Shown piece by piece: positions 10,304-40,668 of a stretch of 64,000 bases of DNA. A model generated the notes under the pieces. That model was not told where the DNA came from. It ran no database searches and saw only the letters and a program-made list of their open reading frames with translations. Positions within the stretch are counted from its first letter, which is position 1. Each line of letters opens with the position of its first letter. Source of the stretch: a virus (Duplodnaviria; Heunggongvirae; Uroviricota; Caudoviricetes). The position numbers were made by a program, and so were the translations under genes. The DNA lies in the IMG/VR virus record IMGVR_UViG_3300028048_000115, positions 18,061 to 82,060 of that record; one strand, 5' to 3'.

Positions 10304-10389
10304 ATAAATGTGATGTACATCACAAAATATAATTGTTTTTTGTATTATAATAATTATGTAAGTTGATTTGAAATAGAGAGGAATAGAAA

Positions 10390-11210: not shown

Positions 11211-11226
11211 TGTGATTTACATCACA
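11211..11226. promoter_or_regulatory. CRP-consensus-like palindrome TGTGATTTACATCACA upstream of a promoter
   Basis: perfect TGTGA-N6-TCACA; similar sites at 10309, 22357, 25555, 34381 and 54921. Confidence 0.5.
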
Positions 11227-12018: not shown

Positions 12019-12417
12019 ATGAAAGAATTAGTAGAATACACAACCCATAATTTATATGGTTTATTTAAGCCAGAAGAAGTCTGCTTTGTTGTAGATATAG
12101 ATTATGAATATATAAGTGAACTTTCATATATTACAGACGATATGTTGGACGCTGTGGACGAAGCAAAAGAAAATGATTATAAGATTTTTGTCTTCACAAA
12201 AAAGTTCACAAAAGATTGCATGGATACCGAAAGACTTTTCCAGGATATGATAGAAAATCTTGAAGAAGAAGGATTAGATAGAAATTATGTGCTTTATCAC
12301 ATGGAAGAAAACGGTAAGAAAGAATTTGCCGAAATGATTGAGAAGTGGTTCAGAAAGAACATTGACCAAACTTATTGGTTCATGGATAGACTTCTAGGAA
12401 CTCTAAGATTGAATTAA
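12019..12417 (+). CDS. hypothetical protein, paralog A (related to 12653-13075)
   Basis: paralogous to the downstream gene (ELVEYT..NLYGL..DKIF.YTKKF.KDC...LENLEEEGLD). Confidence 0.45.
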   Translation: MKELVEYTTHNLYGLFKPEEVCFVVDIDYEYISELSYITDDMLDAVDEAKENDYKIFVFTKKFTKDCMDTERLFQDMIENLEEEGLDRNYVLYHMEENGKKEFAEMIEKWFRKNIDQTYWFMDRLLGTLRLN

Positions 12418-12434: not shown

Positions 12435-12665
12435 ATGAATGAAATAACACTAACTCTTAAACTTGATACTGTACAAGGGATCATTTATATGATTGAAAAT
12501 CGTATTGATAACCTTCAATACAAAAAACTTGAAATGTACAGAGGTCAACCAATAGAAAAAAGAATTAATAACTATATTGAAAGATGGAAAAACCGTCTTA
12601 ACGAATTAGAAGCATTTATGCCTAAAGACAATTGTGAACAAGAGGAAAAAGAATGGAAGAATTAG
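12435..12665 (+). CDS. hypothetical protein
   Basis: ORF track. Confidence 0.3.
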   Translation: MNEITLTLKLDTVQGIIYMIENRIDNLQYKKLEMYRGQPIEKRINNYIERWKNRLNELEAFMPKDNCEQEEKEWKN

Positions 12666-13075
12666 TAGAATACACAATGAATAATTTATATGGCCTAGTT
12701 AAACCCTATGGTAAATTTGAAGCAGAAGAGCTTTGTTATGTTGTAGAAGTAGATTATGACTGTATAGATAATGAGCTTTCATATACTACAGACAATTTAA
12801 GCCAAGCGTTATCCAAAGCAAAAGAAAATGATGATAAGATTTTCATCTACACAAAAAAGTTTGCAAAGGACTGTCTAAATACCCATAAGATTTTTGAAGA
12901 TACGTTAGAAAACCTTGAAGAAGAAGGATTGGACATTGGTTTTGTAATAGGTGGTATCGAAGAATATGCTGAGGAAAAATTTACAGAACTAATCAATATA
13001 TGGTTTAAAAAATATGTCGGAAACGATTATTGGTTCCCAGATAGACTTCTAGGAACACTTAAAACAGGAGATTAG
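12653..13075 (+). CDS. hypothetical protein, paralog B of 12019-12417
   Basis: sequence similarity to 12019-12417. Confidence 0.45.
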   Translation: MEELVEYTMNNLYGLVKPYGKFEAEELCYVVEVDYDCIDNELSYTTDNLSQALSKAKENDDKIFIYTKKFAKDCLNTHKIFEDTLENLEEEGLDIGFVIGGIEEYAEEKFTELINIWFKKYVGNDYWFPDRLLGTLKTGD

Positions 13076-14389: not shown

Positions 14390-14630
14390 CAATGGATAAA
14401 AATATGAGTCTTTAGGCTCATACAGACATTGACATTCCAATAATTATATTATATAATATTTATATAAAAACAAATTTTAAAATTCGGTGAGTCTGTTGTT
14501 CACAACAAATCTCACCAAACTCTTGGGAAGGACCTCTCGGAGTATAAAGCCTTCAAACATTTGTGTTACACACAGTTTGAACTACTTTCTAAATGGAAGC
14601 ATCAACCCTTTAAGGTTGATGTAGGTCACA
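14390..14630 (+). mobile_element. miniature IS200/IS605-type element (left end plus right end of the TnpB IS at 57511-58966, no tnpB); carries a TnpB omega-RNA-like right-end sequence
   Basis: left end caatggataaaaatatgagtctttaggctcat and right end ...ggaagcatcaaccctttaaggttgatgtaggtcaca both match the full element. Confidence 0.7.
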
Positions 14631-14669
14631 TTATAAAAATATTATAATTAAAAGAGAGGGAATAAGACA

Positions 14670-16736: not shown

Positions 16737-16991
16737 ATGAATTTTGGTGAAGCATTAAATGCAGTTAAGAATGGTAAAAAGGCTAAGCGTTCAGGTTGGA
16801 ATGGTAAAGACCAATTCATTGAACTTGCTACTAATGTATCTTTTGTTAGACCAAACGGTGAAGTTGTAAATGTAAATCATAAAGATATGGGCAACAAAGC
16901 TATTGCATTCCACGGCACAAGTGGTATCCAGTTAGGCTGGTTAGCATCCCAATCTGATATGTTATCTGAAGACTGGATAATTCTTGAATAG
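16737..16991 (+). CDS. DUF2829-family small protein (Tad2-like candidate anti-Thoeris sponge)
   Basis: MNFGEALNAVKNGKKAKRSGWNGK...WLASQSDMLSEDW pattern typical of DUF2829. Confidence 0.45.
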   Translation: MNFGEALNAVKNGKKAKRSGWNGKDQFIELATNVSFVRPNGEVVNVNHKDMGNKAIAFHGTSGIQLGWLASQSDMLSEDWIILE

Positions 16992-18828: not shown

Positions 18829-19791
18829 ATGATTATAGGAGCAAAAATGAGAAAAATTACAAAAACCCATACCGGAATTATAGTTTCAGATACCGATTTA
18901 GGTATTGAATACTTGTATGTTGGAGACTATGGAAAAGAAAACAACATCAAGGCAGATTTTCTTGGCTATACAAAAAGAATTGAAAAGGTTGAAAATACGC
19001 CTATAGATATTACCGAAAAACTTGTAGTAACTGTAAGCACACAAAAAGGTTGTTGTGAAAAATGTAAATTCTGTGATTGCCATAAATTAAGTTTTAAGGG
19101 CAATTTATCACTTTCAGAACTCGTACACGAAGTTACTTGTGGAGTTGCTTTATCTAAAATTAACAAAGGACAACGCTTAAATGTTCATTTTGCAAGAATG
19201 GGTGAACCAACATACAATTTTGATGTTATAGAATGTGCTAAAATTTGTGGTGAGATTTATAAAAATCAATTTAAAGAATACCACCCCGTTGTTTCTACAA
19301 TGTTACCTAGAGGAAATAAAAGATTAAAAGAATTTCTATTAAGGTGGTGTGAACTTCAGGATAATAATTGGAACGGTGGAATTGGCTTACAATTTTCTAT
19401 CAATACTTTAAATGAGAATGATAGGAATGAGATGTTTAGAAATAGGTCTTTATCTTTGCAAGAAATTTCTGACTTGATAAAGGAATTACCAAAACCAAAA
19501 GAAAGAAAATACACTTTAAATTTTGCCGTAACGTCAAAGTGCGATTTAAGTGTTAAGACAATGAATAGATACTTTGATAAAGAAAAGTGTATTGTAAAGA
19601 TAACACCAATACACGAAACTAAAGAAGCAGTTGAAAATAATTTTGAAATTGTTAAAGATTTTGATGTGTATGAGCAATTTGAAAAACCTTTAGTTTTAGA
19701 CGGTTGGAATGTTATTGTTTTTGTACCTTCTCAAGAAGAAGATAGCGATAGAATTACTTGTGGAAATTCTTTAATCGCTTTTGAAAATTAA
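18829..19791 (+). CDS. radical SAM protein, RlmN/Cfr-like
   Basis: VSTQKGCCEKCKFC (CxxxCxxC) and a downstream MGEP motif resemble RlmN/Cfr. Confidence 0.45.
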   Translation: MIIGAKMRKITKTHTGIIVSDTDLGIEYLYVGDYGKENNIKADFLGYTKRIEKVENTPIDITEKLVVTVSTQKGCCEKCKFCDCHKLSFKGNLSLSELVHEVTCGVALSKINKGQRLNVHFARMGEPTYNFDVIECAKICGEIYKNQFKEYHPVVSTMLPRGNKRLKEFLLRWCELQDNNWNGGIGLQFSINTLNENDRNEMFRNRSLSLQEISDLIKELPKPKERKYTLNFAVTSKCDLSVKTMNRYFDKEKCIVKITPIHETKEAVENNFEIVKDFDVYEQFEKPLVLDGWNVIVFVPSQEEDSDRITCGNSLIAFEN

Positions 19792-19871
19792 TGGGAATAA
19801 AATGTATTTCTATCATAGAATACATATTGACAAAGTTGAAGTCAGTTGTAAATATTTTTCAAGGAGAATAA

Positions 19872-20420
19872 ATGACTGACGATTTATTAGATTATATTCA
19901 CCAATTCGGAATGACTTCCTTGCTAGAAAAAGCAAGAAATTTTAAAAGTTATCCTTTAGCAATTCCAAGTTATAAACTTAAAACAAAAGCAAAGCTGGTA
20001 AGAGAAATTGATACACTAATAGACCACGATATTCCTGTCTTTATTTTTTGCTACAAAGATGATTTTACCGAATCAGGTTATGATAAAATACCTCACGGAG
20101 ACAATGTTACATTTGTTTTAATCGAGGAAAAAGATTTTACCTACAGAGGTCTTTATTACAAGTCAATTCAAGGTAAACGCTCGTTTATTCAAGACTGGAT
20201 GCTTGAGCACAACCATAAAATTTATTTTATTTGTGATGATGACTGCAACGGAAAAGGAAGATTTTTAATTTCCGAAAACCCAAGAAAAATAATCACGACT
20301 GACCTTAGTGTAATGCTTAAACTTGCTTCAGAGATTTCAAATTATCTTCCAAAAGATTGGCCATTATTATCGCTTGGTTGCAATATTGATCATTGCCTGA
20401 TGATGAATGGTAATTTTTAA
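19872..20420 (+). CDS. hypothetical protein
   Basis: ORF track. Confidence 0.35.
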   Translation: MTDDLLDYIHQFGMTSLLEKARNFKSYPLAIPSYKLKTKAKLVREIDTLIDHDIPVFIFCYKDDFTESGYDKIPHGDNVTFVLIEEKDFTYRGLYYKSIQGKRSFIQDWMLEHNHKIYFICDDDCNGKGRFLISENPRKIITTDLSVMLKLASEISNYLPKDWPLLSLGCNIDHCLMMNGNF

Positions 20421-20525
20421 AAATGGAAGATTTTTTCTCCAATTAGTATTGTAATTTTTTTAAATTGATCTATAATAGATATGTAAAAGAGATTTTTTGA
20501 GACTGTATATGAGAGGGAATGAAAA

Positions 20526-20879
20526 ATGAATATTGGTGTTAAGACAGAGAGAGTTTTTAACGAGCTTTACAATGACAATGCTTTTACTTTTGAGGGTTTA
20601 TCACTTACTGATGACCTCCTCGAAATGTTAAACAATGTGTTTGAAGAGAACGATTTACTTGCCAAGCCAATCGAAAATCTTTATGTGCTCAAGGGTGAGT
20701 ACATCAACAATCTTTTAAATCTTACTGGTGATAATCGTTATCCTGATGATTTAACAATTATTTCTATCAAGCTAGATAATTTCAAGAATTTTGGAAAACT
20801 TGCAATTTTTAAGCTGAAGATTGGTGCTCGTTGGTTTAACGACATCGTTGATAACAATTTAAGAAGAGAAGGACGCTAA
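20526..20879 (+). CDS. hypothetical protein
   Basis: ORF track. Confidence 0.35.
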   Translation: MNIGVKTERVFNELYNDNAFTFEGLSLTDDLLEMLNNVFEENDLLAKPIENLYVLKGEYINNLLNLTGDNRYPDDLTIISIKLDNFKNFGKLAIFKLKIGARWFNDIVDNNLRREGR

Positions 20880-22306
20880 TGGAAATTTTAAACGAAAAAG
20901 GTGCTATCGGCTTTAACACCACTTATGACCCAATTTTAGATCTATTCGCAAGCGTTGGGGGACTTGCACCTCAATCAGAGGTATCAGAGAAATTAAAGGA
21001 TACCTTACGTCTTGCAGTAACTTTCAATCCAGTTGAGAGCGCTATTGTTCTGTTCAATTTACGTGACAGATTGGAGGGAATGGGTTATCGCAATATTTTT
21101 AGAACCTTATTTAAGAGCACCCTGGGTTACTGTAATGATTATAAAAAGTTAATTCCTTTAATCCCAGAGTACGGAAGATGGGACGACCTATCAGCACTAA
21201 TAGGTGTAAACAAGGAAATCGATGAACTAATCATTGATATTGTTAAAAAGCAGTTAGCAGAGGATTTAATTTCTGAGGCTCCAAGTCTTTTAGCTAAGTG
21301 GATGCCAAGTATCAATACTTCAAGTTCAGAAGCAAAGAAGTTAGGAAAATTCTTTGCAAAGAACTTAGGCCTGTCTGAAAAGAATTATAGACAGACCTTA
21401 ACCCGCTTACGCTCAAAAATTAAAATTATTGAGAATAATTTAAGAACAAGGGACTATTCCTTTGATTATTCTCACGTGCCTTCACTTGCAATGAGCAAAT
21501 ATAAAAACGCTTTTGAGAGAAACGACTCTGAAAGATATTCTGATTATCTCAATGACGTTAAGACAGGTAAGGCAAAAATTAACACCTCAACTCTTAACAT
21601 TGTGGATATGGCTAAGTCTGTAAGAAAAGGTGGAAGAGACCTCGTTAATATTCAGTACGATAACTTACCTGATTTCGGAGAATGTAATGCCTTAGTATGT
21701 ATGGATGGTTCAGGAAGTATGTATCATAGCCGCAACGGCGTTGAATGTATTGACGTAGCAAAGGCATTAACCGTTTATTGTTCAGACAGAAACAAAACTT
21801 ATAAAAACCAGTTCATCACTTTTGGTTCCTATGTTAATTTTGTTACCTTAAAAGGCAAAACTTTTTCAGAAAAGATTGAGGAATTAGACCAGTACGATGA
21901 CTGTGGAACCACTAATTTTGAAAAGGTATTCTTAGAGATTTTATCCCACGCAAAGATGTATCACTTAACTCCAGAGCAGATGATTGATACCTTAATCGTG
22001 GTTTCCGATATGCAGTTTGACGATCCATGTTGCTTCAAAAATAAGAACAAGTCCGTTTACAGAAAACTCCAGGATATGTTCAAAGAGGAAGGTTTTGAAA
22101 TGCCTAAGTTAGTGTTCTGGAATGTTTCAACTGCTAGGGCACTCCCAATCACAGTTGATGATTACAATGCAACCATTTTAAGTGGTTGGTCACAGAATAT
22201 GGTAAGATACCTCCTAAGTGGTGAAGACATCACTCCAAGAATGGTGTTAGAGGAAGTGACAAAATCACCTAGATACACAAAAATTGCGGAAGTTTTAAAT
22301 GCGTAA
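20879..22306 (+). CDS. vWA-domain protein (MIDAS DGSGSM), possibly TROVE/Ro-like
   Basis: VCMDGSGSM MIDAS motif in the C-terminal half. Confidence 0.45.
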   Translation: MEILNEKGAIGFNTTYDPILDLFASVGGLAPQSEVSEKLKDTLRLAVTFNPVESAIVLFNLRDRLEGMGYRNIFRTLFKSTLGYCNDYKKLIPLIPEYGRWDDLSALIGVNKEIDELIIDIVKKQLAEDLISEAPSLLAKWMPSINTSSSEAKKLGKFFAKNLGLSEKNYRQTLTRLRSKIKIIENNLRTRDYSFDYSHVPSLAMSKYKNAFERNDSERYSDYLNDVKTGKAKINTSTLNIVDMAKSVRKGGRDLVNIQYDNLPDFGECNALVCMDGSGSMYHSRNGVECIDVAKALTVYCSDRNKTYKNQFITFGSYVNFVTLKGKTFSEKIEELDQYDDCGTTNFEKVFLEILSHAKMYHLTPEQMIDTLIVVSDMQFDDPCCFKNKNKSVYRKLQDMFKEEGFEMPKLVFWNVSTARALPITVDDYNATILSGWSQNMVRYLLSGEDITPRMVLEEVTKSPRYTKIAEVLNA

Positions 22307-22444
22307 TATGAAAATGTTATTGGTCTTCAGGCCAATAGCATTTAAACATTTTGAAATGTGATCTAAATCACAATAAAAAATAGTTGTTTTCTTATTATAA
22401 AGATATTATAATTATTATGTAAGTTGATTTTGAGAGGAAATAAA

Positions 22445-22951
22445 ATGTGCGAATTATTTGACAAAAAAGATGTTAAAAGTTGGACTACTTGTTCTGAAGT
22501 AAGAATAAGCGAAGAGGGATATTTTGGTTATAACTTACTAGATTTAGAGTACCGCATTAAAAATGAAAACCCTAAAAAATTGTCTGGAATAAATGAAATT
22601 TCAGCTCATACATTTAAAGCTGAGGGTGCATGGTATCCATTCTTTTTACCATTAGACAGAGTTAAGAAACAAGACTCAAAATATAGACCGTTAAAAACTT
22701 TTGATGAGCTTTTTAATTTCTTAATGCCGGATAGCGATGAGGATGATACCGACAGAAAAGCAGAATTGCTTTTAGGAAAAGTATATCAATTAAGGCATAA
22801 ATCAACAGGTAATGTGAGTTATAGATCTTTTTACTCTATTAACCTAACCGAGAATGGTATTTTAATAAACGGTTTGGATTTAGAATATATTTTTGAAATA
22901 TTTGAAATTAAAAAAGATGGTAAATGGGTTCCATTTGGAATTGCGAATTAA
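22445..22951 (+). CDS. paralog family member 1 (C-terminal W[VI]PFG motif family)
   Basis: shared motifs GYFG, YRP.KT..ELF.F, C-terminal WVPFGI. Confidence 0.5.
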   Translation: MCELFDKKDVKSWTTCSEVRISEEGYFGYNLLDLEYRIKNENPKKLSGINEISAHTFKAEGAWYPFFLPLDRVKKQDSKYRPLKTFDELFNFLMPDSDEDDTDRKAELLLGKVYQLRHKSTGNVSYRSFYSINLTENGILINGLDLEYIFEIFEIKKDGKWVPFGIAN

Positions 22952-22968
22952 AAAGTTAGGATAACAAA

Positions 22969-23517
22969 ATGAAAATTTGTGATGTAAAAACTTGGGCCAA
23001 CAAAGATGATGTTAAGGTAGGCGATGAAGGATATTTTTCCAACGACATTTGTTTTTTAGAAAAAATTATAGAAAGAGATTTTAAACGCAAAATTAAGCAT
23101 ATAGATCCATTTAGAGGTAACTGTTTTGTTGCCGAAATAGATGAAAACGAACCTAGTCGCTGTTCTGCATATTCAGGTTATTCTTTCTTTATGCCTGCGG
23201 ATAAAGTTAGAAAGTCAATGTACAGACCGATAAAAACTTTTGAGGAGCTTTTTAATTTTTTTGTACCAAATTTTGATGAGGAATACTTTGGTTTAGGTGA
23301 CGGTGAATATGATACATATAAAAAGACAGAGCTCCTACTAGGACTTACAATTGCACTCAAACGAAAAGCAGGCAATTTTATTGAGGTGTCATTTATTCAG
23401 AATATTTTATTTCTTGACAAAGATTTATGGCTAAATGGCAGACTTTTAAAAGACCTTTTTATGGACTATGAAATTCAGATGAACGGTAAATGGGTTCCAT
23501 TTGGAATTAAGGATTAA
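22969..23517 (+). CDS. paralog family member 2
   Basis: same motifs. Confidence 0.5.
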   Translation: MKICDVKTWANKDDVKVGDEGYFSNDICFLEKIIERDFKRKIKHIDPFRGNCFVAEIDENEPSRCSAYSGYSFFMPADKVRKSMYRPIKTFEELFNFFVPNFDEEYFGLGDGEYDTYKKTELLLGLTIALKRKAGNFIEVSFIQNILFLDKDLWLNGRLLKDLFMDYEIQMNGKWVPFGIKD

Positions 23518-23519
23518 AG

Positions 23520-24056
23520 ATGAAAATTAACAATGGTGATATTTTTAGTTGGTCCAATTGTAATGATGTAAAAATTGGACAGATGGGATATTTTGCATTT
23601 GACATTGAAGAATTAGACAGTAAAGTTGGAAATACGGAACCAATGGAACTTGTTGATATTGATAGTAAATCAGGGACTCCATTCCAAGCTTTCGAAGATG
23701 AAAAATTAGAATATTATCCATTCTTTTTACCTTTTGAAAAGGTAGAAAATTACAGACCTTTTAAGAATTTATTAGAATTTTACAAGGTTGCTTTAAATCC
23801 TAATTATGAAGAGCCACTTATTGATGATGAAGAGGGTTTAAAAGCAATTATAGAATACCTTATCGTTGGACAAGTAATTAGAATTAAGCGAATTGGTAGT
23901 GATGAATACATTCCAAGATCTCATCTGATTACGTGTGCTAGCTATAAGGATAACAGTATTTACCTTGACGATTATTGCACTCTTAAATATCTACTTGACC
24001 ACTACAAATTATACAAAAATGGTGAGTGGGTTCCATTTGGTGTAGAAAAGGAATAA
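23520..24056 (+). CDS. paralog family member 3
   Basis: same motifs. Confidence 0.5.
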   Translation: MKINNGDIFSWSNCNDVKIGQMGYFAFDIEELDSKVGNTEPMELVDIDSKSGTPFQAFEDEKLEYYPFFLPFEKVENYRPFKNLLEFYKVALNPNYEEPLIDDEEGLKAIIEYLIVGQVIRIKRIGSDEYIPRSHLITCASYKDNSIYLDDYCTLKYLLDHYKLYKNGEWVPFGVEKE

Positions 24057-24057
24057 A

Positions 24058-24576
24058 ATGGATAAGATTTTTAATAAAGAAGATGTGTTCACTAACATAA
24101 CTGCTGAAAACGCTAAAGTAGGCACAGTAGGATTTTTTGGTTATGGTCTGCAAGATTTAATTACTGCTGTGAAAGAGAATGATTTTCACGTATTATCAGA
24201 TGTTGACCAAACAGCACATTGTTTTAAGGCAAGTGACAACTGTTGGTATATCTTATTTTTACCATTATCCAAAGTCCTTAAACAACGTAAATACAGACCT
24301 TTTAAAAGTATTAGTGAACTGTTTGGTTTTCTAATGCCAGAGAATGAAGAAACTGATAACTTAAAAATGGTTGAAAAATTACTAGGCAAAAAAATTATTC
24401 TGAAGAACCCCGAAAATGGTCAATTCAAGGCTATGTTTATTCAAAATATTGAGTTCAATAACGATAGCAGTGATATAAACTTAAATTGCTTGTCTTTGGA
24501 ATATTTATTTAATATATACAAAGTTCTAATAAATGATTACTGGATTCCTTTTGGAGTAGAAATAAAAGATGAGTAA
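24058..24576 (+). CDS. paralog family member 4
   Basis: same motifs. Confidence 0.5.
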   Translation: MDKIFNKEDVFTNITAENAKVGTVGFFGYGLQDLITAVKENDFHVLSDVDQTAHCFKASDNCWYILFLPLSKVLKQRKYRPFKSISELFGFLMPENEETDNLKMVEKLLGKKIILKNPENGQFKAMFIQNIEFNNDSSDINLNCLSLEYLFNIYKVLINDYWIPFGVEIKDE

Positions 24577-24769
24577 AAGTTTATGCCAGCAACTAAAAGA
24601 ACAAGGCTTAAAATTCAATGATGGTATGATTTCAGAACGGTTTGAAGAAATGTTATATACCATTGAAGACTTACATCTATATGGATATATCACGGACGCT
24701 GAACACAAGAGGATTAGACAGAGATTTTTTAAGGATTTAGAAAATTTTACTTCCAAAATTGAGGAATAA
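24569..24769 (+). CDS. small hypothetical protein
   Basis: ORF track. Confidence 0.3.
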   Translation: MSKSLCQQLKEQGLKFNDGMISERFEEMLYTIEDLHLYGYITDAEHKRIRQRFFKDLENFTSKIEE

Positions 24770-25001
24770 AATGCAGTATCCAAACCCAAATCATTATGAT
24801 TGTCCTAATGATTACTATAATGCGGTAGACATATACTTTGAACAGTTAAGCATAGTTATGAAATTGAAGAACCAAAGTATGCCTATGACAAAAATAAAAA
24901 TGATTATTCAGAACGCTTCAAATACGGTAAATACAATAAATTTTTATCCTAGCAAAAAGAAGGCTTATATGTCCTTATTAAGGATAAATAAGAAAAGTTA
25001 A
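24759..25001 (+). CDS. small hypothetical protein
   Basis: ORF track. Confidence 0.3.
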   Translation: MRNKMQYPNPNHYDCPNDYYNAVDIYFEQLSIVMKLKNQSMPMTKIKMIIQNASNTVNTINFYPSKKKAYMSLLRINKKS

Positions 25002-25038
25002 GGAATTAACCTAAATACAAATCAAAAAGGAAATAAAA

Positions 25039-25548
25039 ATGGATTTATTTGATAAAGCAGATGTTCTTACTTGCATAACAGCAGATAAAGCTGTGGTAGG
25101 AACAAAGGGATATTTTGGAGATTGCTTACAGGGGTTAATTACCGCTGTGGAACATAATAATGTTCAAGCATTATCAGCTGTTTATAAAACTGAGGTTTAT
25201 TGTTTTAAGAATGAACACGGACAGAATTATAATTGCTTTTTACCAGCGAATAAAGTTAGAAAGACGACATACAGACCAATCAAGAATATTAAAGAACTCT
25301 TTGCTTTTATGATGGCTGATGGCAATGAATATTCAGAGGAAAAAATGGTAGATATCTTAATGGGTCAGCGTTATGTACTCAAAAGCAAACTCAATAATGT
25401 CATAAAATATCATACTGTAAATTCCTTATATATAGAGTCCGACGGAATGGTAACTCTTGATTACTTAGATTTAGATGATTTATTTGATTATTACGAGTTT
25501 AAGAAGGGTGATAAATTTGTGCCATTTGCTATTGAAGAAAGGAAATAG
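25039..25548 (+). CDS. paralog family member 5
   Basis: same motifs (C-terminal FVPFAI). Confidence 0.5.
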   Translation: MDLFDKADVLTCITADKAVVGTKGYFGDCLQGLITAVEHNNVQALSAVYKTEVYCFKNEHGQNYNCFLPANKVRKTTYRPIKNIKELFAFMMADGNEYSEEKMVDILMGQRYVLKSKLNNVIKYHTVNSLYIESDGMVTLDYLDLDDLFDYYEFKKGDKFVPFAIEERK

Positions 25549-25630
25549 TATTTTTGTGATCTAGGTCACACAATTATTTTTTATTCTGTTTTATAATATA
25601 TTTGTAAGAAAGATGAGGGAGAATAGAAAA

Positions 25631-26173
25631 ATGAAACTATTTAATAAAGAAGATGTTTTAACAGGCATAACTGCTGATAAAGCTGTTGTGGGAATGAAGG
25701 GTTTTGTCGGAGATAGTTTATCTGCGTTAAATGACAAGATAAGGCGAAATGATGTGAGCACCCTAACAGACATTGTTGGGAACTGTGCTTATTGCTTTGA
25801 AGTTGATCATAAAGAACAGCTTTATGCTTTCTTTTTGCCTGGCGAAAGAGTTATGAAACCAACATACCGACCAATAGCAACGGTTGATGAACTCTTTGAT
25901 TTTATACTTCCTGAATTTGAATTAGTAGGCGATGAATACGGAAAGCAGGTTGACTCATATAGAAAGGCTGAAATTCTGTTAGGCAAAAAATTAGTGTTAA
26001 AGGATTTAATCAATAACCGAACAAAAGTTACACTCATTCAAGACGTTGATTTTAGCAATGATGATGCTGATAGCAGTAATATATATTTAAATAACTTGTC
26101 ACTAGAATATTTATTTAACAACTTCAAAATTCAAATTAACGGTGAATTTGTACCATTTGGAATTGATGAATAA
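25631..26173 (+). CDS. paralog family member 6
   Basis: same motifs; own promoter module upstream. Confidence 0.5.
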   Translation: MKLFNKEDVLTGITADKAVVGMKGFVGDSLSALNDKIRRNDVSTLTDIVGNCAYCFEVDHKEQLYAFFLPGERVMKPTYRPIATVDELFDFILPEFELVGDEYGKQVDSYRKAEILLGKKLVLKDLINNRTKVTLIQDVDFSNDDADSSNIYLNNLSLEYLFNNFKIQINGEFVPFGIDE

Positions 26174-26398
26174 ATGAACTGGTTTATTTGGTTATTGGGC
26201 ATTTGTGTCCTATATGTATGTATGATTTTAAACACTCTTACCGAAATTAAACTGAATGAGCGTTTAAATGGATTTGAACAGCGTTTAAATAAAGCTGAAC
26301 AGCGTTTAAACGAAGTTGAAAAAAGTATAGATAATCAGCAGAAAATTTTGGAAATGCTGGAAACTTTTGAAACTGGAGGCATAATTGAAGACTTTTGA
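26174..26398 (+). CDS. small TM plus coiled-coil protein
   Basis: ORF track; N-terminal hydrophobic segment, repeated ERLN.. heptads. Confidence 0.3.
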   Translation: MNWFIWLLGICVLYVCMILNTLTEIKLNERLNGFEQRLNKAEQRLNEVEKSIDNQQKILEMLETFETGGIIEDF

Positions 26399-26966
26399 TT
26401 TAGGTGACATTGTTTATTTTAAGGATAAGCGATTTGTTAAAAATGGTGACTTAGGATATTTTACCGACAATGAATATATGATGTTCTATGAGGTTAATTA
26501 TACCGAAAGACTCATCAATAAGATTGTTGGGTTTAATGAGGAAACGCAGAAATTTAAAACTGAAAGCGGTGAATACAGTCTGTTTTTACCACTTGAAAAA
26601 GTAAGAGTGCATAGTCCTACTTTAAGACCTTGTGAAACCGTACAGGAAGTTTTAAATGTTCTGAATGGTAATTATATTGATAAAACTCTAGACCTGTCAA
26701 TGACCAAAGAAGAAGCAATTTCAAGACTCAATGGAAGGATAATTCATTGGATTATTGACAGCATTGAAGAGGACGTAAGCATTGTTGAAGTTCATACAAA
26801 TGTTGGCGATTTCATTACAGGAGAAAAGAAAAATTACGGAGTTTCAGACCAGGGTTATATTTACCTAACATTTGAAAATTATGCAGATTATACAGAACAA
26901 CTGATAAATGCAAGAATTAAAGTTAATGGGTCTTGGATTCCATTTGGTATTCTTGAAACAAGGTGA
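26385..26966 (+). CDS. paralog family member 7 (most divergent)
   Basis: GYFTDN, LRP, C-terminal WIPFGI. Confidence 0.45.
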   Translation: MKTFDLGDIVYFKDKRFVKNGDLGYFTDNEYMMFYEVNYTERLINKIVGFNEETQKFKTESGEYSLFLPLEKVRVHSPTLRPCETVQEVLNVLNGNYIDKTLDLSMTKEEAISRLNGRIIHWIIDSIEEDVSIVEVHTNVGDFITGEKKNYGVSDQGYIYLTFENYADYTEQLINARIKVNGSWIPFGILETR

Positions 26967-27044
26967 GGTTAAGTATAAATATGTTATCAATATGGGCACC
27001 ACAATTGTGGTGCTCAAGTCAATTATAAATGGTGAAACATAACA

Positions 27045-27479
27045 ATGGCTATTAAATTTAAAAATTGCATAAACGAAAAGGCTTTTGCTGATTGTCCGAT
27101 AACATCTCAATTATTAACTGCACTTCAAAAAAGTTTTGAAAAATATCGCACCAAAGAAAAATACAAGAATGTATTAGGTATGGTAAATACGGATTTTGCC
27201 GGTAGTTTAAATGTGACCGATTTGTTCATTAGGGAAGATAATTACGAGAACACCGTAGGTTTCTATGCTGTCTGTGCCAAATATGAAGCTATGGCTGATT
27301 TCATTAAAGGAAGGATCCACAGTGGTGAATTAAATAGTTCAATTACATCAACTGAAGAAGCATATAATATATTAAAAAACCTGCACAAACATATATATTG
27401 GGATCACGACGGCGAAAAGACCGTAAAGAAGCAAATCCCTATTATATTTCAAGACATTGAGAATGAATTAAAATTATAA
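27045..27479 (+). CDS. hypothetical protein
   Basis: ORF track. Confidence 0.35.
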   Translation: MAIKFKNCINEKAFADCPITSQLLTALQKSFEKYRTKEKYKNVLGMVNTDFAGSLNVTDLFIREDNYENTVGFYAVCAKYEAMADFIKGRIHSGELNSSITSTEEAYNILKNLHKHIYWDHDGEKTVKKQIPIIFQDIENELKL

Positions 27480-27531
27480 GGTTAAATTTCGAAATAGGGT
27501 TTTTAAAAGCATAAATATCTGGGCACCACAT

Positions 27532-28089
27532 TTGTGGTGCTTAAGTCAATTATATGAACTTAAAATGTTAAATCTTAAATCTTCCGATATTCCAAAAATA
27601 AGATCTGAAATTCTAAAAGAGCAGAATTACACTTGTCCTCTTTGCGGAAAACACATTACAGAGCAAGACAGAATTACTTTAGACCATCAGCACAAGCAGA
27701 GAAAATCTGATAACAATGGCGAAAACGGAAACGGTCAGGTTAGAGGTGTTTTGTGTGCTGACTGCAATGTATCTGAAGGAAAAATCTGGAACTCAACGAG
27801 CAGATTTCAAGGTGCTAGAACTCCACAGGACCGTATAAACTGGTTAAGAAAACTGATTGAATATTACTCAAAGGATCCATATCCTTATATACACCCAACA
27901 GAAGTGCAAAAGGAACCAGAACTTTCTAAAAAGAATTTTAACATTTTATTAAAAAGGTTTAAAGAAAAATATCCAAAGAAAAAACCTATTGAATATCCAA
28001 AATCAAAAAAGATGACCGCAACATTAAAACCTTTATATGAAGAATTTGAGATAAATCCTTATAATGGGACTGTTATTGAACGCACCTAA
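27532..28089 (+). CDS. recombination endonuclease VII (Holliday junction resolvase, T4 gp49-like)
   Basis: CPLCGK...LDHQH...GQVRGVLCADCNVSEG matches the Endo VII zinc and catalytic motif. Confidence 0.75.
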   Translation: MWCLSQLYELKMLNLKSSDIPKIRSEILKEQNYTCPLCGKHITEQDRITLDHQHKQRKSDNNGENGNGQVRGVLCADCNVSEGKIWNSTSRFQGARTPQDRINWLRKLIEYYSKDPYPYIHPTEVQKEPELSKKNFNILLKRFKEKYPKKKPIEYPKSKKMTATLKPLYEEFEINPYNGTVIERT

Positions 28090-28391
28090 ATTTCTGTTCT
28101 AATCAAACATAAATGTATATAAATAAAATATAAATATTTAAAAAGAAATATATGAGCTAAAAAGACTCATATTTTTATATAAAAAAGGTTTTAAAATGAT
28201 AACATTATTATTAATAGCATTTATGTTTTTTGGAGTTTTGATAAGTTTATGGTATTCAACAAGAATTGTTATAGATCTTAAAAAGACCAAACTTAAACTT
28301 GCTTGTTGCTCATATAAAGTTTCAACAATTAAAGAGCAGCTTACCGTGTTTAAAGCATCCTTAAAAGAGATCGACCGCAAAATTTCAATAA

Positions 28392-30536
28392 TTGAACAGA
28401 GTGTCCACAATGATAAAATTTAAGCAGATTTTAAACGAAAAAACACGCCTCGCAAAGGAATTGGATAGAGTTGAGAACGAACATGGTTCCGCAAATGCTA
28501 GTGAAGCGAAGAAACGTGTTTTTGGAAAAGCAAAAGGTCAAGCATTAAAAACTTGGTTAAATTCAAGAAAACAATACGACAAAAACGTAACAATGAAGGA
28601 TGCCCCATCCAGTATTAAAGACGCCAAAAACGCTGATGAACTTAGACAAGCCATTTCAAGGTGGAAAAACGACAAAAATTCAATTCTTAAAAACGGTTAT
28701 ATGACCGTTGCCTCATTACTTAGAGCAAATGACACCTCAGGCAAAGAAGGTGCAGAGTTAGAAAAACAGCACCGTGAAGAAAAAACTGGATCCGAAACCC
28801 CACAAGAAGAAACTTCACCAGATGGTAGTGATGAAACTCAATCAACTGAAATCACATCACAAGAGCAACCAACTGAAACTTCATCAGATGGTAGTGATGG
28901 AACTCAATCAACTGAAATCACATCACAAGAAGGTAGTGCTGAAACATCATCAGAAGGTAGTGCTGAAACAACATCAGCCGGTAGTAATGAAGAACTTTTA
29001 AAAAAGTTAAAAAATGGTGATGACCTTTCAAAAGAAGAACTTGAAAAACTTATAGAAATCGGAAAGGACGACCCAAATATTTCTGCTGAGGAATATTCCG
29101 CTTTAATGAAACAAAAAGATAAAGTGGAAGATGACCTGAACGCCCGAGACTTAGAAATGCAGAAACGACATAAGAGAGAAAAAAGCGTAGCAGATGCCAA
29201 CGAAGCATTCGCAAAAGCACTTGATGAATTTTTACAATCGTTTGGCTTTGATAGCAGATTTAAAGAAAAGGCAACAAGCAATAAAGAAGAAATTGAAAGA
29301 CAGCACGAACGTGACAGAAAATTAATTGAGCAGGAACGAAGTTTACAAGAAAAAACAAAATTAATCAAAGAAATGAATAAATCAGATTTTAGTTCATTAA
29401 GAAAAGCACAAAAAGAAAAAGAAACCGCGGAAATGGAAAAGATTGAAAAAGCTGGAAAACAGGAATTAGAAAATACTTTATCTGATCAACTCAATACAAA
29501 AATTGAAGAATTTAAAAATGGCCTTGAGGGAAATAATAAAACTCTTTTGGACACCATTAATGCTAATGAAAATGCTTTAAAGGACGCCGAAGAAAAATAT
29601 TCTAGTGCATTGTCAGAACTTGGAGACAATTTTAAGGATATAGACTTAAACAAAGCATTAGAGGCAGATGATAGTGTTCCTGATGAGGAAATAGTTGAAA
29701 TTTTTGGTGAATACTCAGCAGATGACGAAGAAGAGGAAATCAAACTCCCAGTTATGTATTTAAAGATGAGTATTGAGAAACTTAAAGAAACACAACCTAC
29801 CGTTGATGTAAAATATAAACCGCTAATTCAGCGACTTATTGTAACAAAGGAAAAGATTAAAACATTACAGGACGCTCAAAATAATGTTAGCACTTCAAAA
29901 TCAAATTTGGAATTATCAAAAAATAGTAATCCCGAACTTGTTAAACAACGTGATGAACTTTTAAGAGCATATAGTCCTGGTGGTGAAAAATATTTAGAAA
30001 CAGAAAAAAATATTAAAGAAAAAATAGAGAAAAGGAAAAAACAGAAGCAAGAAGAATTAGAACAGGAAAAATTGATCGCAGAAAAAAATTTAAAGGAAAA
30101 GGTTGTAGATGTTCGTTCCGAAATTAATGATATTCAAAAAGGTCTTTTAAAAACTTTAAGAGAATTGAGTAAGGTTGATTATGGCGAAAACCCTATATTA
30201 TTTATGGCTTTACAAAACGAAATTGAAAGCAAGACAGAGAATTTGAAAGCAAAAAACGAGCAATATAATAGTACCCTTGCCTCACTTGGTATAGATGTGA
30301 AATCACAATCTGAAGAAGACAAACTTTTTGGAAAAGAAAAATCTTTTGGAAGTAGTAAACCTTTTGGAAAAGAAAAATCTTTTGGAAGTAGTAAACCTTT
30401 TGGAAAAGATAAACACGCTAAAAATGAAAGTTTAAAGATTAATAAGTACGAAAATAAGAAAGCATTATGTGAATACTTGAAATTACGAAAAACAGATACT
30501 TTTAAATACAGAAAAGAATTTTTTGAAAGACTTTAG
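28392..30536 (+). CDS. large coiled-coil protein with acidic Ser/Thr-rich tandem repeats and a C-terminal KSFGSSKPFGKEK repeats
   Basis: ORF track; internal nucleotide tandem repeats at about 28800-28980 and 30330-30420. Confidence 0.5.
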   Translation: MNRVSTMIKFKQILNEKTRLAKELDRVENEHGSANASEAKKRVFGKAKGQALKTWLNSRKQYDKNVTMKDAPSSIKDAKNADELRQAISRWKNDKNSILKNGYMTVASLLRANDTSGKEGAELEKQHREEKTGSETPQEETSPDGSDETQSTEITSQEQPTETSSDGSDGTQSTEITSQEGSAETSSEGSAETTSAGSNEELLKKLKNGDDLSKEELEKLIEIGKDDPNISAEEYSALMKQKDKVEDDLNARDLEMQKRHKREKSVADANEAFAKALDEFLQSFGFDSRFKEKATSNKEEIERQHERDRKLIEQERSLQEKTKLIKEMNKSDFSSLRKAQKEKETAEMEKIEKAGKQELENTLSDQLNTKIEEFKNGLEGNNKTLLDTINANENALKDAEEKYSSALSELGDNFKDIDLNKALEADDSVPDEEIVEIFGEYSADDEEEEIKLPVMYLKMSIEKLKETQPTVDVKYKPLIQRLIVTKEKIKTLQDAQNNVSTSKSNLELSKNSNPELVKQRDELLRAYSPGGEKYLETEKNIKEKIEKRKKQKQEELEQEKLIAEKNLKEKVVDVRSEINDIQKGLLKTLRELSKVDYGENPILFMALQNEIESKTENLKAKNEQYNSTLASLGIDVKSQSEEDKLFGKEKSFGSSKPFGKEKSFGSSKPFGKDKHAKNESLKINKYENKKALCEYLKLRKTDTFKYRKEFFERL

Positions 30537-34321: not shown

Positions 34322-34432
34322 TTCTCCTCTCTTAAAAATCTCTCTTACACTTATATTATATAATATTTTACAATAAAGAATGTGATCTAAATCACATTTT
34401 GATTATATAAATATACTAGAGGTAAAAATAAA

Positions 34433-35695
34433 ATGTTATTTAAATATTTAATGGAAGCAGGTCTTAACATCAATGGCAAAACATATCCAAAATTTGGAAA
34501 TGCTTTAATTTGTGCGGGTGGTGCTGGTTGTTTTGACGAAAACACACTCGTGAAAACTAATGAAGGGTACAAACGAATAAAAGACATTAAGACTGGCGAT
34601 CTTGTGGAAACGCTTAACGAAAATACAAACGTTTCCGAATTTAAGGAAGTTGAAGAATTAAAGGCATTTGAAAGCACAAAACCTATGATTAAGTTAACTT
34701 TTGACAATGGCGAAGAAGTAATCTGTACTGAAGACCACGAATTTTTAGTTGATGGCAAATGGGTAATGGCAAAAGATTTAAAAATTAAAAAAGAATATAT
34801 CAAAAATTATTCAAAAACAGTTTATGACCTTAAAATCAAAGACAACCATAATTACAAAATTACAGAGTCTGATTTAATAGTTCATAATTCAGGTAAGGGT
34901 TTTGTTCTCAATAATGTGTGTTTATTCCAGGGAAGAACTTTTGACGTTGATAACATCAAAAAGAACCTAATCAAAATGAAAGATACCACCGTAATTTATA
35001 AGAAGTATCTTGAATGGAGAAAACAAAATCCTTCAGCACCAGAAACCATCAATGACCTTAAACTTGAGGAGCCTGAGCACGTTTCTTTACTTCACAAATT
35101 CTCATCTGAAATGGGTTATGGTGACGCTGTAATTAAAACTTTTATCACAAATGCTTCATTATTACCTGCTGATAGAAAACCAAATGTAATTTTTGACTGC
35201 ACTCTAAAATCATTTTCAGATTTGACGGATTTTAAGAAAATGCTTGACTTAGGTGGTTATGACCCTAAAAATATTCATTTAGTTTGGGTGCTAAACAAAT
35301 TTGAAGTTGCTTTGAAACAAAATGATGAAAGAGAACGAAAGGTTTCCATAAATGTTATGTTCAAGACTCACGAGGGTGTTTCCGAAAATCTTAGCAATAT
35401 CCTTAAAGATTTAAACTCTATTCGAAACATTGTTGATGGCGATATTTGGATTGTTCCAAATCAAACTAAAGTTGATAATGACTCGGTTGTTTCATTAAGA
35501 AAAACCTTTAGTGGTAAAGAAGTAAAAAGCGTAAGGTACGTAAAAGAATATTCCGCTTATCAAGTAAAGAAATCTGGTAAAGCACCAAAATCTTACGATG
35601 AAATCTGTTCCGATGTGATTGATAATCTCCATAAGTCTAAGATTATTGATAAAATCAAGGATTACGTTCCAGTTTCAACAAAAGATAATTGGTAA
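34433..35695 (+). CDS. P-loop NTPase or nucleotide-kinase-like protein interrupted by a mini-intein in the Walker A motif
   Basis: extein junction ICAGGAG|CFDEN...IVHN|SGKGF reconstitutes GGAGSGKG; Hint domain blocks present. Confidence 0.6.
   Translation: MLFKYLMEAGLNINGKTYPKFGNALICAGGAGCFDENTLVKTNEGYKRIKDIKTGDLVETLNENTNVSEFKEVEELKAFESTKPMIKLTFDNGEEVICTEDHEFLVDGKWVMAKDLKIKKEYIKNYSKTVYDLKIKDNHNYKITESDLIVHNSGKGFVLNNVCLFQGRTFDVDNIKKNLIKMKDTTVIYKKYLEWRKQNPSAPETINDLKLEEPEHVSLLHKFSSEMGYGDAVIKTFITNASLLPADRKPNVIFDCTLKSFSDLTDFKKMLDLGGYDPKNIHLVWVLNKFEVALKQNDERERKVSINVMFKTHEGVSENLSNILKDLNSIRNIVDGDIWIVPNQTKVDNDSVVSLRKTFSGKEVKSVRYVKEYSAYQVKKSGKAPKSYDEICSDVIDNLHKSKIIDKIKDYVPVSTKDNW
34529..34888 (+). other. 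mini-intein (about 120 aa, no endonuclease domain)
   Basis: begins with Cys, ends in HN, next residue Ser; TGD.V, EDHEF and VHNS blocks. Confidence 0.6.
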
Positions 35696-37485: not shown

Positions 37486-37728
37486 CAATGGATAAAAATA
37501 TGAGCCTAAAGAGTCAATATATAGATATTGAATTTCTATTAAATATATTATATAATATTTATATAAAAACAAATTTTAAAATTCGGTGAGACTGTTGTTT
37601 ACAACAAATCTCACCAAACTCTTGGGAAGGACCTCTCGGAGTATAAAGCCTTCAAACATTTGTGTTACACACAGTTTGAACTACTTTCTAAATGGAAGTA
37701 TCTACCCTTTAGGTTGATGTAGGTCATA
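37486..37728 (+). mobile_element. miniature IS200/IS605-type element (left end plus right end, no tnpB), copy 2
   Basis: near-identical to 14390-14630. Confidence 0.7.
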
Positions 37729-40527: not shown

Positions 40528-40528
40528 A

Positions 40529-40668
40529 ATATGAACCTTTAGGCTCATATACAGAAACTCTTGGGAAGGACCTCTCGGAGTATAAAGCCTTCAAACATTT
40601 GTGTTACACACAGTTTGAACTACTTTCTAAATGGAAGTATCTACCCTTTAGGGTTGATGTAGGTCACT
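40529..40668 (+). mobile_element. truncated miniature element (left-end hairpin fused to the right end), copy 3
   Basis: atatgaacctttaggctcatatac is followed directly by the right-end sequence. Confidence 0.6.

What the first reader, a model, noticed from the sequence alone, without database searches (positions are those of the whole stretch)
22424..26966. Tandem array of seven diverged paralogs with a conserved C-terminal W[VI]PFG motif
Seven consecutive + strand genes of 169-193 aa share a clear scaffold: an N-terminal Dv..w.....vG..GYFg block, a central YRP[IL]KT..ELF.F[LF].P followed by an acidic patch, and a terminal NG[KE]W[VI]PFG[IV]. Overall they are highly diverged. Members 4, 5 and 6 are the most similar. 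Two tiny ORFs and a TM-coiled-coil ORF interrupt the array, and a second promoter module at 25555-25610 restarts transcription. Such rapidly diversifying tandem families in phages are typical of host-interaction or anti-defence arms-race proteins. I recognise no characterised family.
Basis: seen in the sequence. Interest (0 to 1): 0.75.

Follow-up and report, generated by a model that had tools for sequence, protein, structure and literature searches.

The report
Seven-copy array of unannotated phage protein
A large T4-like phage from gut or rumen metagenomes carries seven old, diverged copies of a small two-domain protein that no database describes; it is probably an early host-interaction protein, but its function is untested.

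Summary
Seven intact + strand genes (168-193 aa, 24-47% pairwise identity) at 22445-26966 are homologous. An HMM built only from non-window relatives finds exactly these seven (E 3e-17 to 3.5e-49).

They belong to a large family seen only in metagenomes: 952 clusters at 50% identity. Pfam, PHROGs, NCBIfam, PADLOC and PDB sequence searches give no significant match, and four tblastn queries found nothing in 50,697 GenBank phage records.

The copies are old rather than a recent burst. Most have closer relatives in other phages than in the array. Copy number is 1, 2, 3 or 7 in different phages. N- and C-domains have been reshuffled between members.

Recent dN/dS is 0.15-0.5, against 0.08-0.25 for flanking genes, so selection is purifying.

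The array forms two operons. Each is driven by a recurrent phage promoter (TATAAT-N5-TGTA) with a CRP-box-like palindrome. A promoter of the same class stands upstream of a Tad2-like anti-defence gene.

My best guess, at about 0.4, is a panel of non-enzymatic early binder proteins for host takeover or anti-defence. This is a new, unannotated family of a familiar kind.

The parts
22357..22423 (+). Promoter module 1: palindrome TGTGATCTAAATCACA (22357-22372), -10 TATAAT (22407-22412), conserved TGTAAG (22418-22423)
   Evidence: The motif recurs 6 times (palindrome) and 14 times (TATAAT-N5-TGTA) in the window, against 0.67 and 0.36 expected.
22445..22951 (+). W1, family member, 168 aa (the ORF could also start at TTG 22424)
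   Evidence: independent HMM E 3.5e-49. Orthologues at 95% (L029), 84% (L014, mosaic) and 63% (L012a).
22969..23517 (+). W2, family member, 182 aa
   Evidence: E 5.7e-41.
23520..24056 (+). W3, family member, 178 aa. It belongs to a different major clade of the family from the other six.
   Evidence: E 1.3e-37.
24058..24576 (+). W4, family member, 172 aa. This is the protein that was modelled.
   Evidence: pLDDT 91.7; E 9.1e-45.
24569..24769 (+). Small conserved gene, 66 aa, overlapping the W4 stop by 8 nt. Not a family member.
   Evidence: Homologues in L001 (78% identity) and L012 (49%), both near family genes.
24771..25001 (+). Small conserved gene, 76 aa, basic (pI 9.6). Not a family member.
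   Evidence: Homologues in L001 and L012.
25039..25548 (+). W5, family member, 169 aa. The terminal motif is degenerate (KFVPFA).
   Evidence: E 5.9e-44.
25555..25608 (+). Promoter module 2: palindrome TGTGATCTAGGTCACA (25555-25570), TATAAT (25592-25597), TGTAAG (25603-25608). The palindrome centre lies at -41.5 from the assumed +1.
25631..26173 (+). W6, family member, 180 aa
   Evidence: E 7.4e-47. Start chosen from the GGAG position and the family N-terminus.
26174..26398 (+). 74-aa ORF with an N-terminal hydrophobic helix and a heptad/coiled-coil region encoded by three 21-nt repeats (26259-26334). Not a family member.
   Evidence: repeat family D9. One search gave only weak, sub-threshold XhlA and Sugarporin_N matches.
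26385..26966 (+). W7, the most divergent member, 193 aa, TTG start, with about a 20-aa insertion in the C-domain
   Evidence: E 3e-17.

Best explanation
What it is (shown). The array holds seven intact, anciently diverged paralogs of an unannotated phage accessory protein family known only from metagenomes. Each protein is about 170 aa, soluble and mildly acidic (pI 4.6-5.4), with no conserved catalytic-type residues.

Each has two modules. The N-domain (about 80 aa) is conserved and is a small beta-barrel of the SH3/Tudor/KOW type; it also exists on its own or duplicated in other proteins. The C-domain (about 90 aa) is more variable, starts at the invariant YRP, ends in W-V-P-F-G, and has no structural match.

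The host genome is a T4-like phage with gp43-type polymerase, gp32, endonuclease VII, NrdD and DNA and RNA ligases. The array sits in a plastic region between a DUF2828/vWA gene and endonuclease VII. It is organised as two operons, W1-W5 plus two small genes, and W6-TM-W7. Each operon lies behind the phage's own recurrent promoter (TATAAT-N5-TGTAAG) carrying a CRP-box-like palindrome.

How it most likely works (inferred). These are non-enzymatic early proteins that bind host macromolecules or those of competing elements, that is, host-takeover or anti-defence binders. The conserved N-barrel would supply a common function, such as docking to a shared partner or oligomerisation. The C-domain 'types' would supply target specificity. 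On this reading the array is a panel of specificities, built by old duplications, exchange between phages and reshuffling of N- and C-domains, and kept by purifying selection.
For: Family and paralogy: (952 clusters at E<=1e-3).

No known family.

Structure:
- Full-length model pLDDT 91.7, pTM 0.58.
- N-domain alone pLDDT 90, pTM 0.78.

Modularity:
- N-domain-only and N-N proteins exist: P0255, P0262, P0033.
- N- and C-domain identities are incongruent. L018b has a W4/5/6-type N-domain (46-47%) with a W1-type C-domain (62%). L012b has a W1-type N-domain (58%) with a W6/L018c-type C-domain (55% and 71%).
- L014a is a mosaic with a breakpoint near the domain border. Its N-domain is 94% identical to W1. 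Its C-domain is 76% identical to W1 but 81% to L012a.

Accessory status:
- Copy number is 7, at least 3, 3, 2, 2 and 1 in different phages.
- The genes lie at a different locus in relative L012.
- Single copies occur in a prophage (L004/L005) and on a DNA polA phage contig (L001), within early or replication-side blocks of small ORFs.

Functional constraint:
- dN/dS is 0.15-0.51, against 0.08-0.25 for flanks.
- The array is 100% identical in four independent samples.

Regulation:
- A promoter of this class precedes both operons, and another (16087) stands upstream of the Tad2-like gene at 16737-16991 (Pfam E 7.7e-22).

No invariant His, Cys, Ser or Lys. The invariant or near-invariant positions are Gly, Pro, aromatic and aliphatic residues plus D9 and R80.
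Against: - No direct evidence of any target or phenotype.
- dN/dS is well below 1, so there is no positive-selection signature, and the counts are small.
- The timing of expression is inferred from promoter motifs only. The promoter class has not been shown to be 'early'.
- The host is unknown.
- No conserved partner gene was found across the family.
- Proximity to Tad2 (5.5 kb, with several genes between) is weak guilt by association.
Confidence: 0.4

Rival explanations
1. The proteins serve a phage-internal accessory function. They might regulate or chaperone the phage's own transcription, replication, DNA modification or assembly. Paralogs would be specialised for different phage partners rather than for host targets.
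For: - Single copies lie beside replication-module genes (DNA polymerase A, dUTPase, PDDEXK, ssDNA-binding) in other phages. A dUTPase lies within a few kb in 7 of 11 phage types.
- Purifying selection and perfect conservation across samples.
Against: - Copy number varies from 1 to 7.
- Four family queries found no tblastn match in 50,697 GenBank phage records.
- The family occurs in unrelated phage types: a T4-like phage, a prophage, and a phage contig with a family A DNA polymerase. This argues against a role tied to one machinery.
- No conserved neighbour or partner gene.
Confidence: 0.2
2. The N-barrel binds nucleic acid in the manner of a PAZ, Tudor, KOW or L2/L24 domain. The proteins would then act on RNA or DNA ends or on modified phage DNA, for example protecting or marking nucleic acids, rather than acting as protein-protein inhibitors.
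For: - R80 is invariant in the family.
- The phage has a glucosyltransferase-like gene, which hints at modified DNA.
Against: - The proteins are acidic (pI 4.6-5.4; family median 5.1) with acidic loops, which is atypical for nucleic-acid binders.
- No conserved basic patch is evident in the alignment.
Confidence: 0.15
3. The proteins act in defence or competition, for example superinfection exclusion or an abortive-infection-like role against other phages or mobile elements. In prophages they would be expressed for the benefit of the lysogen.
For: In a prophage (L004/L005) the gene lies near the end of the element, beside Bro-N genes and next to host genes. Such positions are typical of morons (the generalisation is from general knowledge).
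Against: - No PADLOC match.
- No enzymatic or membrane effector domain.
- Seven copies in a lytic T4-like phage behind phage promoters fit offence better than defence.
Confidence: 0.12
4. The array is evolutionary debris: decaying duplicates or chance ORFs without function.
For: W7 is very divergent and W5 has a degenerate C-terminal motif.
Against: - All seven ORFs are intact, with Shine-Dalgarno-like sequences seen upstream of the starts examined (W1, W5, W6).
- dN/dS is below 1.
- The sequence is identical in four other samples.
- Folds are predicted with confidence.
- HMM E-values are as low as 3.5e-49.
Confidence: 0.02

Closest known systems
Small beta-barrel (SH3-like / Tudor / KOW / PsaE / PAZ) domains, e.g. 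LBR Tudor 2l8d, PsaE 6ijo_E, NusG/Spt5 KOW, and A. aeolicus Argonaute 1yvu (presumed PAZ region)
   Same: The N-domain model (about 70 ordered residues: strands 24-28, 44-49, 56-58 and 66-69, plus an inserted helix 31-39) superposes on these barrels over 42-62 residues at 1.8-3.3 A. The hit list consists almost only of such barrels.
   Different: - No sequence-profile relationship to any of them.
- An inserted helix is present.
- Neither an aromatic-cage nor a KOW motif was checked against these families.

This is a fold-class resemblance only.
YorP (Bacillus subtilis SPbeta prophage protein, PDB 2heq) and Pfam DUF5348
   Different: The matches are below every significance threshold. Those proteins are single-domain and lack the YRP...WVPFG C-domain.
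Small early phage anti-defence proteins (Tad2, anti-CRISPRs such as AcrVA4)
   Same: - They are small, soluble, non-enzymatic-looking and acidic.
- They are accessory genes and patchily distributed.
- A promoter of the same class stands upstream of the window's own Tad2-like gene.
   Different: - No homology to the Pfam Tad2-like domain; only the gene at 16737-16991 matches it.
- The AcrVA4 similarity is generic barrel similarity.
- No inhibitory activity has been shown.
- Known anti-defence genes are rarely present as seven-copy arrays (general knowledge).
Paralogous small-gene families in the plastic regions between core genes of T4-like phages (general knowledge)
   Same: The array lies between conserved T4-type genes in a region that differs between close strains. 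For example, the two genes at 18829-20420 are absent from L014 and L029. Copy number and location vary among relatives.
   Different: This particular family is not found in any of 50,697 GenBank phage records. It is also shared with a prophage and other phage contigs in metagenomes.

Membership tests
Any curated protein family (Pfam-A, PHROGs v4, NCBIfam, PADLOC) | Profile-HMM match at or above the family's threshold | tested here: not met
   No match above any cut-off for the seven proteins. Scanning 73 family members one by one gives only scattered sub-threshold hits: DUF5348 in 3 of 73 (best E 0.0043), and phrog_4288 and phrog_1223 in 6 of 73 each (best E 0.0055 and 0.015).
SH3-like / Tudor-like small beta-barrel fold (N-domain) | Five-stranded, highly bent antiparallel barrel that superposes on known members with a significant score | tested here: inconclusive
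   [not shown]
Thoeris anti-defence Tad2 | Match to the Tad2-like domain PF11195 | tested here: not met
   None of the seven match. The separate gene at 16737-16991 does, at E 7.7e-22.
Anti-CRISPR AcrVA4 | Structural and sequence similarity over the Cas12a-binding domain, and inhibition of Cas12a | tested here: not met
   [not shown]
Known anti-phage defence proteins | Match to a PADLOC-DB model | tested here: not met
   No match at E<=0.1 for the seven proteins or the three interspersed small ORFs.
CRP-dependent (class II-like) promoter, for the two promoter modules | TGTGA-N6-TCACA palindrome centred near -41.5 (class II) or -61.5 (class I) from the transcription start, and binding by CRP | tested here: inconclusive
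   - The half-sites match the E. coli CRP core TGTGA (PMC1635313 abstract) at 6 sites.
- With +1 assumed 7 nt after the -10, the centres fall at -41.5 (10309, 25555), -54.5 (22357) and -59.5 (11211, 54921) (and manual reading).
- The transcription start, the host and the binding protein are unknown.
Virion or structural or other core phage genes | Conserved single-copy presence and position across related phages, with a match to structural families | tested here: not met
   Copy number is 1 to 7 and the locus varies. No PHROG structural match. Absent from GenBank phages.

The most novel reading that the evidence does not exclude
The family is a previously unrecognised, widespread class of modular phage counter-defence or host-takeover proteins in gut and rumen phages (about 950 clusters at 50% identity). 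A conserved small-barrel N-domain would act as a common handle. A limited set of interchangeable C-domain 'types' would each neutralise a different host factor or host factor variant. The seven-gene array would then be a combinatorial inhibitor panel, assembled by domain shuffling and driven by promoters that read a CRP-like host signal.
Probability: 0.25. Interest if true: 0.7.

Novelty: new member of a known kind. Interest (0 to 1): 0.45.

Why it matters
If these proteins are host-interaction or anti-defence binders, the family would add a large, wholly unannotated class to the anti-defence repertoire of gut and rumen phages.

It would also offer a natural experiment in specificity. Seven paralogs sit in one genome. 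Their C-domain types are recognisable and shared across phages, and the conserved N-domain also exists alone.

Even without a known function, the family deserves a database entry (DUF level). It has about 950 clusters at 50% identity, a confident two-domain fold with no solved relative, and no annotation.

The promoter family with CRP-box-like palindromes gives a direct handle on the phage's transcription programme and a clue to its host.

Tried and rejected
1. A conserved partner gene. Small ORFs follow or overlap many family genes, but they are not homologous across the family. A 62-67 aa downstream ORF is shared only within one prophage-type clade. The window's 66- and 76-aa genes are shared only with L001 and L012.
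2. Internal duplication, with the C-domain as a diverged copy of the N-domain. hhalign finds only the overlapping YRP residues.
3. Informative domain fusions. Longer family members carry only extra N-domains or unannotated extensions, and no Pfam domain passes threshold.
4. Cultured-phage relatives. Megablast of the 10-kb region and tblastn with W4, P0069, P0121 and P0018 found nothing in 50,697 phage records.
5. Host assignment through prophages in GTDB representative genomes. Two motif scans found no confirmed relative. The only names available are 'Succinivibrio sp.' for one full-length member (P0381) and a 'Eubacterium sp.' MAG for one N-domain-only protein (P0335).
6. IMG/VR. The window phage itself was not found. 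P0069 gave 8 single- or double-copy loci.
7. dN/dS between paralogs was not attempted, because at 24-47% amino-acid identity synonymous sites are saturated. Orthologue-based dN/dS was used instead.
9. A recent in-situ burst of duplication is rejected by the tree and by nearest-neighbour identities.
10. Antisense ORFs across the array, such as 22609-22785(-) and 23181-23396(-), resemble each other only because they mirror the conserved + strand coding sequence. They are not treated as genes.
11. tRNA and Rfam scans of the window found nothing.
Full report
**1. The observation**

The region 22424-26966 holds seven + strand ORFs of 168-193 aa, with three small non-family ORFs among them.

- A MAFFT alignment of the seven has 12 invariant columns.
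- Two members deviate. W7 has LRP instead of YRP. W5 ends in KFVPFA.
- Pairwise BLASTP E-values run from 4e-43 to 1e-5, except W4-W7 at 0.006.
- An HMM built only from 62 non-window homologues (<55% identical to any paralog) recovers exactly these seven ORFs from all six frames of the 64-kb window. E-values are 3e-17 to 3.5e-49, and nothing else scores. N-domain and C-domain HMMs give the same seven.
- Trimmed-alignment identities are 24-47%. W4, W5 and W6 are the closest trio at 41-47%.

The likely start codons are ATG 22445 for W1 and ATG 25631 for W6. Both are set by the positions of the promoter and of the Shine-Dalgarno-like sequence.

**2. The genome**

This is a large T4-like phage.

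- It has a gp43-type family B DNA polymerase, 48% identical to those of Vibrio phages.
- It also has gp32, a 5'-3' exonuclease, endonuclease VII, DNA and RNA ligases and an NrdD.
- GC content is about 31%.
- The 10-kb region around the array (20000-30000) has no nucleotide match in 50,697 GenBank phage records.
- Contigs 100% identical over the array occur in four other metagenome or SRA samples. Strains with flanks 97.9-99.2% identical at nucleotide level (97-99% at protein level) also exist.
- The host is unknown.

Clues to the host are weak and point in different directions:

- Shine-Dalgarno-like sequences and TATAAT -10 elements are present.
- The anaerobic NrdD is present.
- A tail protein is 38% identical to those of Butyrivibrio phages.
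- One full-length family member is named 'Succinivibrio sp.', and one N-domain-only protein comes from a 'Eubacterium sp.' MAG.

**3. The family**

- A profile of the seven proteins found 168 proteins at 90% clustering. All were 'hypothetical' with no Pfam domain.
- A 73-sequence profile found 952 clusters at 50% identity at E<=1e-3, 344 at <=1e-10 and 50 at <=1e-30, among 1.84 billion representatives.
- Nothing matches in Pfam, PHROGs, NCBIfam, PADLOC or PDB sequences. Scanning 73 members individually yields only scattered sub-threshold hits.
- tblastn with four different members finds nothing in GenBank phages.
- Two motif scans of GTDB representative genomes found nothing confirmed.
- BFVD contains three uncharacterised metagenomic relatives.

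**4. Structure**

- AlphaFold2 on W4 with the 73-sequence alignment gives pLDDT 91.7 but pTM 0.58, which suggests two domains with an uncertain mutual orientation.
- The N-domain (residues 1-82) alone gives pLDDT 90 and pTM 0.78.
- So the N-domain is a small beta-barrel with an inserted helix. The C-domain is two helices flanking the acidic loop, then a beta-rich part ending in the WVPFG strand. No hit beyond those of the N-domain appeared, so the C-domain has no attributable match in the PDB set.
- N- and C-domains are not related to each other (hhalign).
- Invariant or near-invariant positions are Gly, Pro, aromatic and aliphatic residues plus D9 and R80. No typical catalytic constellation is present.
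- The proteins are soluble and mildly acidic, with pI 4.6-5.4 and a family median of 5.1.

**5. Modularity and evolution**

- The N-domain occurs alone (75-150 aa proteins), duplicated (P0255, P0262), or ahead of a full-length unit (P0033).
- The C-domain was seen only together with an N-domain.
- Copy number by HMM is 7 in the window phage, at least 3 on a truncated contig of a related strain (L014), 3 in L018, 2 in L012 and L020, and 1 in L001, L004 and L021-L027.
- L012 is a relative of the window phage. There the two copies lie next to homologues of window genes at 12-14 kb, which is a different locus.
- In an NJ tree of 189 sequences, W1, W2, W4, W5 and W6 (with W7 as sister) sit in a 33-34-leaf subclade interleaved with copies from other phages. 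W3 falls in the other large clade.
- Most paralogs have a nearest relative outside the array. W5 is 53% identical to L018a, W4 51% to P0130, W6 52% to P0153 and W1 63% to L012a. The duplications are therefore old.
- N- and C-domain similarities are incongruent. L018b has a W4/5/6-type N-domain (46-47%) and a W1-type C-domain (62%).
- L012b has a W1-type N-domain (58%) and a W6/L018c-type C-domain (55% and 71%). W2's best N-domain match (P0133: 74% N, 42% C) differs from its best C-domain match (P0153: 29% N, 55% C).
- The W1 orthologue in strain L014 is a mosaic. Its N-domain is 94% identical to W1. Its C-domain is only 76% identical to W1 but 81% to L012a.
- Recognisable C-domain types are shared across related phages. 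These are the W1 type, the W4/W6 type and the W5 type.

Between strains, dN/dS compares as follows:

| Gene | dN/dS |
|---|---|
| W1 | 0.35-0.51 |
| W2 | 0.36-0.37 |
| W3 (partial) | 0.15-0.31 |
| three flanking genes | 0.08-0.25 |

Array genes are somewhat less constrained than their flanks, but they are clearly under purifying selection. The counts are small, at 5-18 differences per gene.

**6. Transcription signals**

- Generic sigma-70 and terminator scans are at background level.
- A specific module recurs. TATAAT-N5-TGTA(A/G) occurs 14 times in the window against 0.36 expected, 12 of them on the + strand just upstream of + strand ORFs.
- Six places also carry the palindrome TGTGAT-N4-ATCACA, giving 12 strand matches against 0.67 expected. 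Five of these stand upstream of such a promoter; at the sixth (34381) no TATAAT-N5-TGTA anchor was found downstream on the + strand.
- Both elements precede W1 (22357-22423) and W6 (25555-25608) and are absent in between.
- Gene spacing within each block is 0-37 nt or overlapping. The array therefore reads as two operons.
- The half-site equals the E. coli CRP core TGTGA (PMC1635313). With +1 assumed 7 nt after the -10, the palindrome centre lies at -41.5 for the W6 promoter and at -54.5 for the W1 promoter. Whether host CRP or a phage dimer binds there is unknown.
- A promoter of the same class at 16087 stands upstream of the operon containing a Tad2-like gene (16737-16991, Pfam E 7.7e-22).

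**7. Interpretation**

What is shown: an old, maintained, modular accessory family that is expanded in this phage.

What is inferred: the proteins are non-enzymatic binders made from the phage's own recurrent promoters. A common N-barrel function is combined with C-domain types that set specificity, most plausibly against host factors or defences. I put this at about 0.4.

The rivals are:

- a phage-internal accessory role (0.2)
- nucleic-acid binding by the barrel (0.15)
- a defence or exclusion role (0.12)
- non-functional debris (0.02)

'Rapidly diversifying arms-race' is only weakly supported, because diversification occurs by old duplication, exchange and domain shuffling under purifying selection.

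**8. Novelty and score**

The family is unannotated and structurally unmatched. The phenomenon, an expanded accessory gene family in a plastic region of a large phage, is familiar. I rate it a new member of a known kind, with interest 0.45.

The most novel reading is a modular, combinatorial inhibitor family. That reading has probability of about 0.25 and would merit about 0.7.

Noticed in passing
window + strand 10346, 11266, 16087, 20471, 22407, 25592, 32634, 33456, 39587, 51228, 54963, 54976; - strand 530-544, 34346-34360: A phage-specific promoter-like motif, TATAAT-N5-TGTA(A/G), occurs 14 times against 0.36 expected. Nearly all copies lie just upstream of ORFs on the same strand. It probably defines one temporal class of transcription units.
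   Followed up: partly
window 10309-10324, 11211-11226, 22357-22372, 25555-25570, 34381-34396, 54921-54936: The 16-bp palindrome TGTGAT-N4-ATCACA is identical in its half-sites to the E. coli CRP consensus core. Five of the six copies stand upstream of such a promoter. Centres fall at about -41.5, -54.5 or -59.5 from the assumed start. This suggests control by a host CRP-like protein or a phage dimeric regulator, and may hint at a gammaproteobacterial host.
   Followed up: partly
window 16737-16991 (+): An 84-aa gene matches the Thoeris anti-defence Tad2-like domain (PF11195, E 7.7e-22, above cut-off). It lies 5.5 kb upstream of the array and downstream of a promoter of the same class (16087).
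   Followed up: yes
window 1939-3171 (+), 57555-58214 (-); fragments at 14468-14644, 37567-37719, 40458-40670: A full-length TnpB (IS605 OrfB / Cas12f-like, 410 aa) and a truncated 219-aa copy are present. Short similar ORF fragments occur at three other places, suggesting an IS200/IS605-type element active in or decaying within the phage genome.
   Followed up: partly
window 42304-43287 (+): An actin-like protein (ALP_N plus MreB-like_C domains) is encoded about 0.8 kb upstream of the gp32 gene (44070-45068), with one ORF (43331-44032) between. This is unusual for a T4-like phage.
   Followed up: no
window 59154-62414 (-) and 34433-35695 (+): The NrdD gene (1086 aa) has a homing-endonuclease-like insertion around residues 563-630. 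The 420-aa ORF at 34433 combines helicase-like fragments with Hint/intein domains (PT-HINT, Intein_splicing). This points to inteins or mobile insertions in core genes.
   Followed up: no
window 18829-20420 (+): Two genes, a 320-aa protein with a weak radical-SAM match and a 182-aa protein, are present in the window. They are absent from otherwise about 98% identical strains (L014, L029, L030). This indel shows that the region upstream of the array is plastic.
   Followed up: partly
window 28392-30536 (+): A 714-aa protein of low complexity, rich in coiled-coil-like sequence, has internal repeats such as SSDGSD.TQSTEITSQE and KEKSFGSSKPFG. No family match; function unknown.
   Followed up: no
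window 12019-12417 and 12653-13075 (+): A second, two-member paralog pair (132 and 140 aa, no Pfam match). In relative L012 its homologues lie directly downstream of that phage's two family copies.
   Followed up: partly
window 26174-26398 (+), repeats 26259-26334: The 74-aa membrane-anchored ORF inside the array has three 21-nt tandem repeats encoding (E/N)QRLN(K/E) heptads. It has weak, sub-threshold similarity to XhlA (E 0.0019). In L010 the corresponding called gene is only 58 aa.
   Followed up: no
L004/L005 10001-10501; L020-L027: Single-copy family members sit in a prophage (L004/L005; LexA-like repressor, dUTPase, Bro-N, next to host gal and dap genes) and in IMG/VR viral contigs of 31-50 kb (L020-L027). 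In the IMG/VR clade a conserved 62-67 aa ORF overlaps the stop codon of the family gene.
   Followed up: partly
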